Shown here: positions 13,151 to 16,474 of the stretch, one piece after another
Position numbering within the stretch: the stretch's first letter is position 1
How the letters are laid out: each line of letters opens with the position of its first letter
IMG/VR virus record: IMGVR_UViG_2778261545_000004
Source of the DNA: a virus
Lineage: Duplodnaviria > Heunggongvirae > Uroviricota > Caudoviricetes
Reading direction: 5' to 3' (one strand)
DNA length: 40,808 nt
Position numbers and translations under genes: made by a program
The notes under the pieces: model-generated
The model's input: the letters and a program-made list of their open reading frames with translations, nothing else
The model's database searches: none
Told to the model about the DNA's origin: nothing

Positions 13151-13197
13151 CCCCGTAAACTTTATGTTTACGGGGGAAGGTTATTTCTTTTTTTTAT
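13151..13197. terminator. Bidirectional hairpin terminator between Q and the convergent TIR-like gene
   Basis: CCCCGTAAAC-TTTAT-GTTTACGGGG with T-rich tracts on both sides. Confidence 0.6.
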
Positions 13198-13996
13198 TAC
13201 TTTCAGATAATCGTCGGTTTAATGTGTATTTTATTTGGTTCCTAATCATTTTTTCAGGAATGTCATATTTGTCTAAGAATGATATTATTTCATCCTCGTC
13301 AAGCAATCCATTCTTTATAATTTCATCTATCTGTTTTTGTAGATACCAAACATCCTTCTGTTCTACAGGAGTTAAATTCATATGGCTATTTATGGAGTTG
13401 ATAGTAGCATCACGTTCAAGAACTCTAATCCTTTGATTTAATGAACGAGTGTTTTGTAATATTTCAGATAAAAGATCTTGTTCAGTACGTGGTTTTACTT
13501 CTTCAGTTGGAGGGTATTGATCTAAAGCTCGTTTAAAATTGTTTTCAAATTGCTCCCAGTATGTATTAAAAACTTGCTTTAGAATACGGTCATCTAAAGA
13601 TTTATCGACAAGACAATTGTTTATTGTCCTTACTAATTCCCAAACACTCTCTTTATTTGGCGTTGTGTGATTGAATTGAGCAAGTGGATCTTTTAAATCT
13701 TCTGGTTTTAAGTCAATCAAGAATGTACAAACTTTATTTGTTGAAAGTCCTTTTGCTAGTGCTCCTGTTTCAAACAAAATCCATGGTTTATTTTTATTTT
13801 CTTGTGTCAAACATACAATTCCGACAGATACATCTTTTAATTTATCATTAATTTCAGAGAACCATATAGCGCCACGATCAATATCTCTGGTTGAAATCCA
13901 TGGCTGCGAAGCTTGGATAACACACTTCAGCCAGTCGCTAATAAGTTCTGCAACAGCTTGACTTCTTTGCCCAGACCAACTTATGAACACTTTCAT
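13181..13996 (-). CDS. TIR-like domain protein with C-terminal helical domain (moron)
   Basis: 271 aa from MKVFISWSG (TGGAG 6 nt upstream); motifs DIDRG, VGIVCLT, PWILFETG match TIR consensus by eye; AT-rich; reverse orientation between Q and lysis genes. Confidence 0.55.
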   Translation of the reverse strand: MKVFISWSGQRSQAVAELISDWLKCVIQASQPWISTRDIDRGAIWFSEINDKLKDVSVGIVCLTQENKNKPWILFETGALAKGLSTNKVCTFLIDLKPEDLKDPLAQFNHTTPNKESVWELVRTINNCLVDKSLDDRILKQVFNTYWEQFENNFKRALDQYPPTEEVKPRTEQDLLSEILQNTRSLNQRIRVLERDATINSINSHMNLTPVEQKDVWYLQKQIDEIIKNGLLDEDEIISFLDKYDIPEKMIRNQIKYTLNRRLSESNKKKK

Positions 13997-14120
13997 TATG
14001 TACTCCATGTAATCACTCAAAAGGAACTGAAATTTACATTAAAAATTAAATAAAATCACTCACGCGGTCCGCAGAAACCATTGTAATCTGTTATGAGTGG
14101 TTACTTCGCCACACAACTTA

Positions 14121-14623: not shown

Positions 14624-15100
14624 ATGCAGGAACTAAATCCTCAGCGTAAAGCTTTCCTTGATATGGTGGCCTGGTCAGAAGGAACGGATAACGGGCGACA
14701 ACCGACACGTAACCACGGTTATGACGTTATTGTTGGCGGCGAACTGTTTACTGATTACTCCGATCACCCTCGCAAACTTGTCACGTTAAACCCCAAACTC
14801 AAATCAACAGCAGCCGGACGTTACCAGCTTCTTTCCCGTTGGTGGGATGCTTACCGTAAGCAACTTGGACTGAAAGACTTCTCTCCGAAAAGCCAGGATG
14901 CTGTTGCGCTGCAGCAGATTAAGGAGCGTGGCGCTTTACCGATGATTGATCGCGGTGATATTCGTCAGGCAATCGACCGTTGCAGCAATATCTGGGCGTC
15001 GTTACCTGGTGCAGGTTATGGTCAGTATGAACATAAAATAGGCGACCTGATTGCCCGATTTAAAGAGGCTGGTGGGGAAGTAAATGAAGCTGAGATATAA
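14624..15100 (+). CDS. R: Endolysin, lambda R-type lytic transglycosylase
   Basis: 158 aa, near-identical to lambda R as recalled (QRKAFLDMVAWSEGTDNGRQ...GYDVIVGGELFTDYSDHP); AAGGAG RBS. Confidence 0.9.
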   Translation: MQELNPQRKAFLDMVAWSEGTDNGRQPTRNHGYDVIVGGELFTDYSDHPRKLVTLNPKLKSTAAGRYQLLSRWWDAYRKQLGLKDFSPKSQDAVALQQIKERGALPMIDRGDIRQAIDRCSNIWASLPGAGYGQYEHKIGDLIARFKEAGGEVNEAEI

Positions 15101-15476
15101 GCTGGTTATTGTTGCCTTCTTTGTTACCGTCATTGGTTCCTTCATCTGGTCTACCGGGCATTACTACAGCAAATATCAGCACGAAAAGGAGCGTGCTGAT
15201 GAGGCTGTACGAAATGCTGAATCAGCAACTGCCATTACCCGTAACGTTCTGCAATCACTGCAAATCATCAATACAGTTATAGAGGCTAACCAGCATGCAA
15301 AACAGCAGATCGCACTGGAGTCACAGAGAACCCAGGAAGATATCAAAGTGGCTGTTGCGGATGATGATTGTGCTTCACGTCATGTGCCTGCTGCCGCTGC
15401 TGACCGGTTGCGGAAGTACGCGAACAGTTTACGTGCCGGTTCCGGCGGTACCGCTGCCAACAAGCCTGACCACTGA
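15084..15476 (+). CDS. Rz: i-spanin (Rz-like)
   Basis: N-terminal TM helix then coiled-coil region; overlaps endolysin stop. Confidence 0.65.
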   Translation: MKLRYKLVIVAFFVTVIGSFIWSTGHYYSKYQHEKERADEAVRNAESATAITRNVLQSLQIINTVIEANQHAKQQIALESQRTQEDIKVAVADDDCASRHVPAAAADRLRKYANSLRAGSGGTAANKPDH

Positions 15477-15618
15477 AACGCCCCAGCCAGTCATTCCCGA
15501 CCCGCTGACCTATGGGGCCAGTCTGGATCTGAATGTGAGCCTGCTTTCGGCGCTGGGCCAGTGCAACATCGACAAGGCCAGTATCAGGAAGATAGAAACG
15601 TCACGCAACTCACAGTAG
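15361..15618 (+). CDS. Rz1: o-spanin lipoprotein (Rz1-like), overlapped architecture
   Basis: Alternate frame inside and beyond Rz; lipobox LLTGC, Pro-rich mature part; start uncertain (15295 or 15361). Confidence 0.5.
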   Translation: MMIVLHVMCLLPLLTGCGSTRTVYVPVPAVPLPTSLTTETPQPVIPDPLTYGASLDLNVSLLSALGQCNIDKASIRKIETSRNSQ

Positions 15619-15657
15619 CCATTACAAAGCTCATCTGCGGGTGGGCTTTGTAATGGC

Positions 15658-15957
15658 TTATTCGTAGTTGTCACCAGGGAAGTATTCCTGAAACTTTGAT
15701 TTTGGGAGCTGGGTTTTCGCGAAGTTCGCAAGCCTTCCTCTTGTAAGCATGTAGTCACACCCACCTTCTTGTTTGAGAAGGTCACTAGCTAATGTCCGAT
15801 ACACAACGTCACTTCGCAAAATTTCAATGGTGGAATTCCTGATGAGAAATGTTTCACACATCGGGCATCTAATTAACCAAGCGGTATCACGGTTCTGCCA
15901 GGTCGCATCTGAATTGCAAGCCGGGCAGCATTTCTGATCTTCTTGTCCTATGACCAT
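15658..15957 (-). CDS. Hypothetical Cys-rich protein (zinc-ribbon-like), moron between spanins and HNH
   Basis: 99 aa from second ATG (GAGAG 7 nt upstream); CCPAC...CPMCE motifs; reverse orientation in the late region. Confidence 0.45.
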   Translation of the reverse strand: MVIGQEDQKCCPACNSDATWQNRDTAWLIRCPMCETFLIRNSTIEILRSDVVYRTLASDLLKQEGGCDYMLTRGRLANFAKTQLPKSKFQEYFPGDNYE

Positions 15958-16036
15958 TGTCATGCTCTCGCATAGTGAAGGAATTTTCAGATTAACTCAT
16001 TTTCAGACGCATCGTAATGGCTTAAGGAAACAATTA

Positions 16037-16387
16037 ATGCCACCACGTACACCAAAAGCCTGCCGCGTTCGCGGTTGCCGCAATACCACTACTGACCCGT
16101 CAGGCTATTGCGAAAGCCACAAAAGCGAAGGCTGGAAGCAATACAAACCAGGCCTGTCACGTCATCAGCGCGGTTACGGTTCGAAGTGGGATACCATCCG
16201 TGAACGTGTGCTGAAGCGTGACAAAGGCCTGTGTCAGTTATGTCTGCGTGCCGGTGTGGTGCGTGAGGCGAAAACCGTTGACCACATTATCCCTAAGGCG
16301 CATGGCGGCACTGACGCTGACAGTAATCTGCAGAGCCTGTGCTGGCCATGTCATAAGGCGAAAACGGCCCGTGAACGGTTGAAGTAA
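16037..16387 (+). CDS. HNH endonuclease (terminase-associated)
   Basis: 116 aa from ATG 16037 (AAGGAAA RBS); HNH motif (DHIIPKAHGG...N...CWPCH); immediately upstream of terS. Confidence 0.85.
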   Translation: MPPRTPKACRVRGCRNTTTDPSGYCESHKSEGWKQYKPGLSRHQRGYGSKWDTIRERVLKRDKGLCQLCLRAGVVREAKTVDHIIPKAHGGTDADSNLQSLCWPCHKAKTARERLK

Positions 16388-16413: not shown

Positions 16414-16474
16414 GGGGCGGGTCAAATCCCTGTGACCTGACGTCTTCCGGACTGCCCGCCCCATCGTTTTTTTA
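16414..16474. other. GC-rich inverted repeat plus T-tract between HNH and terS (candidate cos/packaging site or terminator)
   Basis: GGGGCGGG (16414-16421) and CCCGCCCC (16455-16462) followed by ATCGTTTTTTTA. Confidence 0.3.

What the first reader, a model, noticed from the sequence alone, without database searches (positions are those of the whole stretch)
15658..15963. Reverse-strand Cys-rich small gene between the spanins and the HNH/terminase module
A 99 aa ORF on the opposite strand in the late operon carries two Cys pairs (CCPAC…CPMCE) suggestive of a zinc ribbon. The Rz/Rz1-to-HNH junction is not a usual gene position, so this is another moron of unknown function, possibly a small regulator or anti-defence factor.
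Basis: partly seen in the sequence, partly recalled or inferred. Interest (0 to 1): 0.4.

Follow-up and report, generated by a model that had tools for sequence, protein, structure and literature searches.

The report
Small zinc-ribbon moron gene in prophage
The reverse-strand ORF is a real, conserved 99-residue zinc-ribbon gene of unknown function, one of several optional cargo cassettes that lambda-like prophages carry between their lysis and DNA-packaging genes (the slot where phage lambda carries bor); RefSeq leaves it unannotated, but it is otherwise ordinary.

Summary
The ORF is real. 15658-15963(-) is open for 101 codons, but homologues start two codons later (ATG 15957, 99 aa). Against homologues at 50-86% nucleotide identity, only this frame stays open. 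Differences concentrate at third codon positions, and dN/dS is 0.07-0.14. Four cysteines (CPxC...CxxCE) are invariant in 16 family members. The family is small and confined to enterobacterial lambdoid prophages. It has no Pfam, PHROG, NCBIfam or PADLOC family and no structural match. RefSeq leaves it unannotated in all 32 complete E. coli genomes that carry it. In eight different prophage backgrounds the gene lies between the lysis and terminase genes, antisense to the late operon. Related prophages have this slot empty or filled with other cargo. The cassette has lower GC, a weak conserved -10-like element and a covarying 3' hairpin. Function is inferred only. The N-terminal ribbon resembles Lar restriction-alleviation proteins below threshold, the C-terminal helical domain is new, and the protein is acidic to neutral. 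My best guess is a lysogen-expressed small binding protein, with Lar-like modulation of restriction as the leading but weak candidate. Interest is modest.

The parts
15658..15957 (-). Coding sequence of the 99-aa protein, stop codon TAA 15660-15658 included. An in-frame ATG at 15963 would add Met-Thr (101 aa) but is not used by the homologues.
15838..15933 (-). N-terminal C4 zinc-ribbon domain (residues 9-40). Invariant Cys codons: C11 15925-15927, C14 15916-15918, C31 15865-15867, C34 15856-15858. Invariant motif: CPxCxSxAxWxN...CxxCE.
   Evidence: Alignment. The AF2 model has four beta strands over residues 6-40. Lar_restr_allev matches below threshold in 16/16 members.
15661..15837 (-). C-terminal helical domain (residues 41-99, four predicted helices). 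No family or fold match. The last 28 residues resemble a repeat unit of the 869-aa protein P0009.
15617..15658 (.). Hairpin that fills the 39-nt gap between the Rz1 stop (15616-15618) and the ORF stop. It is conserved downstream of family members with compensatory changes, and it also occurs in HK022/mEp phages that lack the gene. It has no canonical U-tract on the gene strand.
15964..15968 (-). SD-like GAGAG, 6 nt upstream of ATG 15957. The GA is invariant in 8 loci.
15989..15994 (-). Putative -10 element TAATCT. T1, A2 and T6 are invariant in 8 loci, where the element reads TATGAT, TACACT or TATTGT. Inferred, weak.
   Evidence: The consensus scan did not pick it up.
16012..16017 (-). Putative -35 element TTACGA, 17 nt upstream of the -10. 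Inferred, weak.
15650..15660 (+). Left copy of the 11-bp direct repeat GTAATGGCTTA at the cassette edge. It overlaps the 3' arm of the hairpin and the ORF stop.
16014..16024 (+). Right copy of the direct repeat GTAATGGCTTA, just before the SD and start of HNH. The motif TAAGCCATTAC on the gene strand is also conserved upstream of homologues in other phages.
15579..16035 (.). The segment that differs from 'empty-site' relatives. It comprises the last ~13 codons of Rz1, the hairpin, the ORF and its 5' region. Relatives have ~80 bp here.
15295..15618 (+). Rz1 (LysC) o-spanin gene, convergent with the ORF (flanking context).
16038..16387 (+). Terminase-associated HNH endonuclease gene, divergent from the ORF (flanking context). 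The point equivalent to the ends of the SfV genome record lies at 16445/16446.

Best explanation
The ORF is a self-contained single-gene moron cassette, made of a 5' region, a 99-codon gene and a 3' hairpin. It sits in the lysis/packaging junction of an SfV-like E. coli prophage, antisense to the late operon. It encodes a soluble, acidic-to-neutral cytoplasmic protein with an N-terminal C4 zinc ribbon and a novel four-helix C-terminal domain.

Inferred mechanism: the gene is transcribed from its own weak promoter independently of Q-dependent late transcription, so it is on in the lysogen and probably straight after infection, and is overridden by convergent late transcription. The product has no catalytic motifs. 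It most likely works by binding stoichiometrically, through the conserved ribbon face (S16, A18, W20, N22), to a host or incoming-phage nucleic-acid-handling protein or nucleic acid. The leading specific candidate is Lar-like modulation of restriction-modification, at about 25%.

Shown here: the gene is real and under purifying selection, the Cys ligands are invariant, the cassette is present or absent among relatives, its slot and orientation are fixed, and the hairpin covaries. Inferred: the promoter, zinc binding, timing of expression, the binding mechanism and the target.
For: Coding and selection.
Family and invariant residues.
Slot and orientation: the same in 8 prophage backgrounds with at least 4 terminase types and several lysis types. 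The apparent exception, L025-27, is a prophage fragment that retains a TerS remnant.
Presence/absence: 32 of 1298 E. coli genomes with these flanks carry the cassette. Others are empty or carry other cargo.
Composition: GC is 45% against 52-60% in neighbouring late genes.
Expression signals: a conserved TAnnnT and an SD-like GA lie upstream in 8 loci.
3' end: the hairpin has 6/15 pairs changed on both sides, and 0/500 shuffles reach the covariation score. Distant members have a canonical terminator instead.
Positional precedent: lambda bor has the same position and orientation.
Lar lead: Lar_restr_allev is the top Pfam hit in 16/16 members, best E 1.4e-5. Lar-like PHROGs hit 9/16 and 7/16 members.
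Structure and charge: confident AF2 models, pLDDT 82. pI 4.9-7.7.
Against: No sigma-70 consensus promoter passes the scan in the window or in three homologous loci. No expression data were available.

The Lar match is below Pfam's cut-off (17.7 vs 28.6 bits). It covers only profile positions 4-33, which is the ribbon. hhalign against K-12 Lar/RalR gives 23% probability, and cysteine-dominated ribbon matches are promiscuous: PaaD, YjdM, YacG and DUF7351 also hit.

Lar lies in an early operon, not in this slot.

Foldseek against PDB and BFVD found nothing at E<0.1 for the whole protein or the C-domain.

No partner gene is conserved next to it.

Current PGAP does not call it.
Confidence: 0.55

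Rival explanations
1. It is a prophage-protective or host-modulating factor (superinfection exclusion, defence accessory or fitness factor) expressed in the lysogen. It would act on an incoming phage or a host pathway and have nothing to do with restriction alleviation.
For: The antisense, own-promoter arrangement is that of lysogen-expressed morons such as lambda bor in the same slot. The same prophage carries a TIR defence-type moron on the minus strand upstream of the holin (PADLOC TIR-TM, E 1.5e-57). Distant family members sit next to a DndB-like two-gene operon.
Against: PADLOC gave no usable match for the protein itself (best E 0.009-0.05). There is no membrane segment or signal peptide to suggest an exclusion protein (sequence; GRAVY -0.3 to -0.6). 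The DndB linkage is confined to one subclade and is explained by a shared 2.5-kb block. Neighbours are otherwise unrelated.
Confidence: 0.25
2. It is a small DNA-binding transcription regulator, with the zinc ribbon joined to a helix-turn-helix-like C-terminal domain. The architecture would resemble IS1 InsA or the MqsA antitoxin, and the protein would control its own or neighbouring promoters.
For: The C-terminal part matches 6 tandem repeat units of P0009 (E 1.1e-9; hhalign 86%, E 5e-6 over 28 columns). The P0009 repeats together give a near-threshold HTH_32 score. The helix pattern (LA..LL...G....LT...LA.FAK) can be read as an HTH.
Against: No member hits any HTH family in Pfam. Foldseek with the C-domain model returns no HTH protein. 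The predicted linker between the candidate helices is 8 residues rather than a tight turn. The family is acidic to neutral, with net charge -5 to +0.7. No palindrome is conserved in the 5' region.
Confidence: 0.12
3. It is an accessory to packaging, acting on HNH/terminase or cos/pac, which would explain why it always lies beside the start of the packaging module.
For: In every context its 5' end faces the terminase genes, at distances from about 75 bp to about 1 kb. In the window it lies 490-790 bp from the point equivalent to the ends of the SfV genome record.
Against: It is on the opposite strand from the late operon. It is absent from about 97% of E. coli prophages with the same Rz/HNH flanks and from SfV itself. 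It occurs with at least four unrelated terminase types, so a specific partner is unlikely.
Confidence: 0.04
4. It is not a functional protein gene: either a chance antisense ORF or a decaying remnant. The conserved feature would then be the DNA or an RNA.
For: RefSeq PGAP leaves it unannotated in 32/32 complete genomes. The SD and promoter are weak. One frameshifted copy exists (P0006).
Against: dN/dS is 0.07-0.14 with saturated synonymous sites. Codon-position periodicity holds in all 21 pairs, and only this frame is open in 7 homologues. The four Cys are invariant. The commonest variant is seen on at least 1000 contigs in E. coli, Salmonella and Shigella. Rfam finds nothing.
Confidence: 0.04

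Closest known systems
Lar / RalR of the Rac prophage (Pfam PF14354 Lar_restr_allev, TIGR03655 anti_R_Lar)
   Same: Both are small prophage-encoded proteins whose core is a C4 zinc ribbon of the form K-x-CPxC...CxxCE. Lar_restr_allev is the best Pfam hit for all 16 family members, and two distant members carry a precomputed 'weak' PF14354 hit.
   Different: The score is below the curated cut-off, and only the ribbon (profile positions 4-33 of 58) aligns. K-12 Lar is 64 aa and single-domain, and its ribbon is followed by EALERWNKR. This protein instead has a 59-residue helical domain. Lar lies in the early recET region, not at the lysis/terminase junction. RalR has been reported as a DNase toxin of a type I TA pair (PMC4041452), and nothing here suggests that.
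Lambda bor (and the moron concept)
   Same: Both occupy the same slot and orientation: immediately after Rz/Rz1, on the strand opposite the late operon, before the packaging genes. Both are about 97-99 codons long and are present or absent among related phages. Both fit the definition of a moron quoted in PMC2629481.
   Different: There is no sequence relationship. Bor is an outer-membrane lipoprotein that confers serum resistance (record note), whereas this protein has no signal sequence and is a cytoplasmic zinc-ribbon protein.
Lambda Ral
   Same: It is a possible functional analogue if the Lar lead is right. Ral is a small (67 aa) phage protein that alleviates type IA restriction by speeding up modification (PMC12707154).
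   Different: No sequence similarity was detected. Ral is in the early left operon. The comparison rests on function only and is untested.
Zinc-ribbon plus helical-domain small regulators (IS1 InsA, antitoxin MqsA). This comparison is from my own knowledge and was not tested here.
   Same: The size and two-part layout are similar: an N-terminal CxxC...CxxC ribbon followed by a short helical domain.
   Different: No significant sequence or fold match was found (Zn_ribbon_InsA: E 0.068 in 1 of 16 members). There is no adjacent toxin or transposase. The family is not basic.
P0009, an 869-aa metagenomic protein with 8 tandem ~60-residue repeats
   Same: It shares the two-helix motif [LV][ST]xxx[LIV]xxxAKxxLxxxx[FY]xxx[FY]P with the last 28 residues of this protein.
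   Different: It has no zinc ribbon, is uncharacterised, comes from an unknown AT-rich organism, and aligns with only part of the C-domain.

Membership tests
Lar restriction-alleviation family (PF14354 / TIGR03655) | Score at or above the curated family threshold | tested here: not met
   Window protein: 17.7 bits against the gathering score of 28.6. The best member reaches E 1.4e-5. TIGR03655 is hit by only 3 of 16 members, at E >= 0.012.
Lar restriction-alleviation family (PF14354 / TIGR03655) | C4 zinc ribbon with a CPxC knuckle followed by a CxxC knuckle | tested here: met
   C11, P12, C14, C31, C34 and E35 are invariant. The region aligns with K-12 Lar residues 5-35.
Lar restriction-alleviation family (PF14354 / TIGR03655) | Single-domain protein of about 50-70 aa, with the post-ribbon helix bearing the A-x-x-x-W-N-x-R type motif seen in K-12 Lar | tested here: not met
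   The protein is 99 aa. Only profile positions 4-33 of 58 are matched. No WNxR follows the ribbon; a 59-residue four-helix domain does instead.
Lar restriction-alleviation family (PF14354 / TIGR03655) | Alleviates type I restriction or enhances modification | not testable with these tools
   This needs plating assays of unmodified phage on EcoKI-type hosts.
Moron (independently expressed insert in a phage operon; definition quoted in PMC2629481) | Present in some and absent from other closely related phages at the same position | tested here: met
   32 of 1298 E. coli genomes with these flanks carry it. SfV and strain FXCREC043 have an empty site, and SfIV, 689R6 and EH09-18-41 carry other inserts.
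Moron (independently expressed insert in a phage operon; definition quoted in PMC2629481) | Own promoter and terminator | tested here: inconclusive
   A conserved, covarying 3' hairpin is present, or a canonical terminator in distant members. Upstream there is only a weak -10/-35 with an invariant TAnnnT, and the consensus scan found none.
Moron (independently expressed insert in a phage operon; definition quoted in PMC2629481) | Base composition differs from the surrounding operon | tested here: met
   GC is 45.0% (GC3 47%), against 55.7% for HNH, 59.7% for TerS and 54.2% for TerL.
Moron (independently expressed insert in a phage operon; definition quoted in PMC2629481) | Expressed from the repressed prophage | not testable with these tools
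   No transcript data were available. The opposite-strand orientation is consistent with it, but that is an inference.
Zinc-ribbon fold | Two CxxC knuckles at beta-hairpin turns, with four conserved metal ligands | tested here: met
   The four Cys are invariant. AF2 places strands at 6-10, 17-23, 26-31 and 35-40 around them, with pLDDT 81-85. Metal binding itself was not tested.
Helix-turn-helix DNA-binding domain (C-terminal half) | Significant match to an HTH family or fold | tested here: not met
   No member hits an HTH family in Pfam. Foldseek of the C-domain against PDB returns no HTH, with best E 6.5. The only link is indirect, through the P0009 repeats, whose summed HTH_32 score is just under threshold.
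Known anti-phage defence proteins (PADLOC-DB 2.0) | Match to a defence-system protein model | tested here: not met
   Best matches are LmuB (E 0.021) and DolA (E 0.0092), both short marginal stretches.

The most novel reading that the evidence does not exclude
The family could be a new class of small anti-restriction or anti-defence proteins: a Lar-type ribbon fused to a novel helical effector domain. Its fixed place next to the packaging start puts it within about 0.5-0.8 kb of the last-packaged chromosome end in cos phages. From my own knowledge of lambda, that end is the first to be injected. Under its own constitutive promoter the gene would then be among the first expressed on entry, like leading-region anti-restriction genes of T7 and conjugative plasmids.
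Probability: 0.12. Interest if true: 0.6.

Novelty: new member of a known kind. Interest (0 to 1): 0.3.

Why it matters
In practice, this is a conserved protein-coding gene that current RefSeq annotation omits from every complete E. coli genome that carries it. It also founds a small family, about 16 clusters at 90% identity, that has no Pfam, PHROG or NCBIfam model. In biological terms, it adds a cytoplasmic zinc-ribbon protein to the cargo known from the lysis/packaging junction of lambdoid prophages, a hot spot that also carries bor, a GrlR-family regulator and a DndB-like operon. If the protein proves to modulate restriction or another defence, it would be a compact new inhibitor with a new C-terminal domain. 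If not, it is one more uncharacterised moron. Nothing here overturns current understanding.

Tried and rejected
- **Family libraries:** Pfam, PHROGs, NCBIfam and PADLOC scans of all 16 members gave only sub-threshold zinc-ribbon hits.
- **Sequence searches:**
  - The exhaustive HMMER search of 1.84 billion representatives found only family members plus two repeat proteins.
  - The word-indexed profile search at E<=10 found nothing outside the family.
  - tblastn against 50,697 phage genomes found nothing, with the window protein or with distant member P0016.
  - tblastn against plasmids gave one hit, on a 1.3-Mb record.
- **HTH idea:** not confirmed. It rests only on a 28-column hhalign match to the P0009 repeats.
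- **Lar link:** profile comparison with K-12 Lar gave 23% probability.
- **Promoter scans:** no consensus sigma-70 site in the window or in three homologous loci.
- **Rfam:** nothing.
- **Conserved partner gene:** rejected, because the neighbours differ in every context.
- **DndB-like operon:** it sits next to distant members, but this reflects one shared 2.5-kb block that includes a TerS remnant. It is not an independent context.
- **Palindrome in the 5' region (AATCTCAGATT):** rejected, because it is broken in the window sequence.
- **Mobile HNH element:** rejected, because the gene occurs with terminase types that lack HNH.

Full report
**The observation**

The minus strand is open from 15963 to 15658 (101 codons plus stop). 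All homologues start at the second ATG (15957, MVIGQ..., 99 aa). That ATG has an SD-like GAGAG 6 nt upstream.

An ORF of this length is not remarkable in itself. The window holds 65 ORFs of 110 aa or more, many of them antisense artefacts.

**Is it a gene?**

- A protein search found relatives at 90, 86, 80 and 60% identity. A profile search widened this to about 16 clusters at 90% identity, reaching down to about 40% identity.
- In seven homologous DNAs with pairwise identity as low as 51%, only this frame is free of stops. Differences follow pos3 >> pos1 > pos2 in all 21 pairs.
- Nei-Gojobori dN/dS is 0.07-0.14 at dS 0.6-1.7.
- Five E. coli copies I read are intact, with 0-3 substitutions.
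- The commonest variant (S58G) is recorded on at least 1000 contigs from E. coli, Salmonella and Shigella, always as 'hypothetical protein'.
- One frameshifted copy exists on a 972-bp metagenome contig (P0006).

RefSeq/PGAP annotates nothing here in all 32 complete E. coli genomes that carry DNA at least 99% identical. This is a real gene that current annotation misses.

**Context**

The window is an SfV-like prophage. The local gene order is:

- Q antiterminator
- a minus-strand TIR gene
- lambda-family holin
- GH24 endolysin
- Rz and Rz1
- this gene (minus strand)
- HNH endonuclease
- P27-type small terminase
- large terminase

The ends of the SfV genome record map to 16445/16446, between HNH and the small terminase.

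**Synteny**

SfV itself and E. coli FXCREC043 have Rz1 followed directly by HNH. SfIV, 689R6 and other strains carry unrelated inserts there, including a GrlR-family regulator. Of 1298 E. coli genomes with similar flanks, only 32 have this cassette.

Homology to an empty-site relative breaks at about 15578, inside the last codons of Rz1, and resumes at about 16033, at the HNH start. The cassette has 45% GC, against 52-60% in the neighbouring late genes. An 11-bp direct repeat, GTAATGGCTTA, lies at each edge.

**Position**

I recovered eight distinct prophage contexts for family members: the window, L003-5, L006, L012-14, L015, L016-18, L022 and L023. In every one the gene lies between the lysis genes and the terminase genes, on the strand opposite the late operon. 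The lysis and packaging modules themselves differ between contexts:

- HNH with a P27-type small terminase
- lambda-like DUF1441 with GpA
- Terminase_2 with Terminase_6
- a ParB_N-type protein
- Mu_F/portal_3 head modules

An apparent exception lies next to a relaxase and an integrase (L025-27). It shares a 2.48-kb block with L023 that includes a remnant of the small terminase gene, so it is a prophage fragment.

Lambda bor occupies exactly this slot and orientation. It is a classical moron slot and, in E. coli, a cargo hot spot.

**Cassette anatomy**

The roughly 80 nt upstream of the ATG are conserved among close cassettes whose upstream neighbours are unrelated. Across eight loci the invariant upstream columns spell a -10-like TAnnnT (window TAATCT, 15994-15989; elsewhere TATGAT, TACACT, TATTGT) and the GA of an SD-like element. 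A weak -35 (TTACGA, 16017-16012) lies 17 nt upstream of the -10. None of these passes a consensus promoter scan, so the promoter is an inference.

The 39 nt between the converging stop codons of Rz1 and this gene are almost entirely a hairpin (15617-15658; -27 kcal/mol on the gene strand, z = -5.9). Homologous hairpins follow the gene in six other loci, and the stem is maintained by compensatory changes:

- 84% of cells are paired.
- 6 of 15 pairs are changed on both sides.
- 0 of 500 shuffles reach the covariation score.
- The slid-register controls score far lower.

Two distant members have a canonical intrinsic terminator instead. The same hairpin occurs in HK022 and the mEp phages without the gene. 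It may therefore double as a recombination linker. Rfam has no match.

**The protein**

Invariant residues in 16 members are M1, G4, C11, P12, C14, S16, A18, W20, N22, C31, C34, E35, I39, A57, L60, L71, T72 and A80. AlphaFold2 gives pLDDT 82. It predicts four beta strands around the two knuckles (residues 6-40), then four helices. The C-terminal domain modelled alone also gives pLDDT 82. The family is acidic to neutral (pI 4.9-7.7, net charge -5 to +0.7) and hydrophilic, with no signal peptide or membrane segment.

Family searches:

- Lar_restr_allev (PF14354) is the top Pfam hit for all 16 members, but below threshold. The window protein scores 17.7 bits against 28.6, and the best member reaches E 1.4e-5.
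- The Lar match covers only the ribbon, profile positions 4-33 of 58.
- Other ribbon families (PaaD, DUF7351, YjdM, YacG) also hit weakly.
- hhalign against K-12 Lar/RalR gives 23% probability over 30 columns.
- NCBIfam, PHROGs and PADLOC give nothing usable.
- The exhaustive representative search and a profile search at E<=10 find nothing outside the family apart from two repeat proteins.
- Foldseek against PDB and BFVD finds no neighbour for either model.
- The gene is absent from 50,697 sequenced phage genomes.

The last 28 residues resemble a repeat unit of an 869-aa metagenomic protein (hhalign 86%, E 5e-6). The repeats of that protein together score just under threshold for HTH_32. That is too indirect to call the C-domain an HTH, and the fold search and charge argue against it.

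**How it most likely works**

Shown here: the cassette is an independently evolving, selectively maintained single gene in a moron slot. It has four invariant cysteines and a conserved 3' hairpin.

Inferred: the gene is transcribed from its own weak promoter whenever late transcription is off, meaning in the lysogen and probably on entry. Convergent Q-antiterminated late transcription then silences it. The product has no catalytic motif and a strongly conserved ribbon face, so it most likely acts by stoichiometric binding to a protein or nucleic acid.

My estimates for the target are:

- about 25% for Lar-like modulation of restriction-modification. This is the only homology lead, and it is weak;
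- about 25% for a prophage-protective or host-modulating role unrelated to restriction;
- about 12% for a DNA-binding regulator;
- about 4% for a packaging accessory;
- about 4% for a non-functional ORF.

**Comparison with known systems and verdict**

As a genetic element this is a typical moron and a positional analogue of lambda bor. As a protein it is not a member of the Lar family. It fails the score threshold, the domain layout and the post-ribbon motif, although it shares the ribbon type. It is an uncharacterised family of a known kind. Interest is modest. The useful outputs are the corrected start codon, the proof that the ORF is coding, the missing RefSeq annotation, and the definition of the slot and cassette.

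Noticed in passing
window 13181-14020 (-), probable start 13996: A very AT-rich (32.5% GC) TIR-domain gene lies on the minus strand between the Q antiterminator and the holin. It matches PADLOC model TIR-TM at E 1.5e-57, and PGAP calls it a TIR domain-containing protein. In strain A17 the same slot holds two different hypothetical genes. This is a second moron hot spot and a probable defence gene.
   Followed up: partly
window 15658-15963; 32 RefSeq E. coli genomes (e.g. NZ_CP104516.1 1005497-1005802): RefSeq/PGAP leaves a gap of about 420 bp with no feature where this conserved gene lies. GenBank submissions list it as a hypothetical protein of 99 or 101 aa.
   Followed up: yes
L029 824-1144 (NZ_CP063503.1), also H101 and H102: In other E. 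coli prophages with the same Rz/HNH flanks, the slot holds a plus-strand 'GrlR family regulatory protein' gene. Other strains carry different hypothetical genes there.
   Followed up: partly
L023 6810-8503; L025 3067-4748; L026, L027: Distant family members (P0016, P0018) converge on a two-gene operon made of a 379-aa DndB-like protein (Pfam E 2e-33; PADLOC DndB E 4e-22) and an unassigned 181-185-aa protein. The 2.5-kb block is shared at 84% identity between a prophage and a locus next to a TraI_2 relaxase and an integrase. It may be a defence module.
   Followed up: partly
P0009 (869 aa, metagenomic): This protein has a coiled-coil N-terminus, 8 tandem ~60-residue repeats that each end in RFP, and a C-terminal domain of about 200 residues. 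The repeats share a two-helix motif with the C-terminus of the window protein and together score just under threshold for HTH_32. Its origin and function are unknown.
   Followed up: partly
window 15617-15658; HK022 NC_002166 39675-39716; mEp235, mEpX2, HK446, mEp506: The hairpin after Rz1 is 93% identical to a sequence that follows a different gene in HK022-type phages, about 350 bp upstream of their HNH gene. It looks like a shared module-boundary element.
   Followed up: partly
window 15650-15660 and 16014-16024: An 11-bp direct repeat, GTAATGGCTTA, flanks the cassette. The motif TAAGCCATTAC on the gene strand is also conserved upstream of the gene in other phages. Its origin is unexplained; it could be a duplication of a hairpin arm or an insertion footprint.
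   Followed up: partly
L001 2465-2737 (= window ~15084-15356): PGAP marks the Rz (DUF2570) gene as an incomplete pseudogene in strain E4 and omits it in A17, although the 130-codon ORF 15084-15476 is intact in the window. This is probably an annotation artefact of the overlapping Rz/Rz1 pair.
   Followed up: no
window 16445/16446: The right and left ends of the SfV genome record join contiguously here (93% identity over 298 bp), between HNH and the small terminase. This is the likely cos region of this prophage.
   Followed up: partly
P0006 (ENA contig, 972 bp) and P0027: One copy of the gene carries a frameshift after residue 59 and reads into the alternative minus-strand frame (window ORF 15510-15785). 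Some annotations call only that alternative frame. It could be a sequencing error or a pseudogene; this was not resolved.
   Followed up: no
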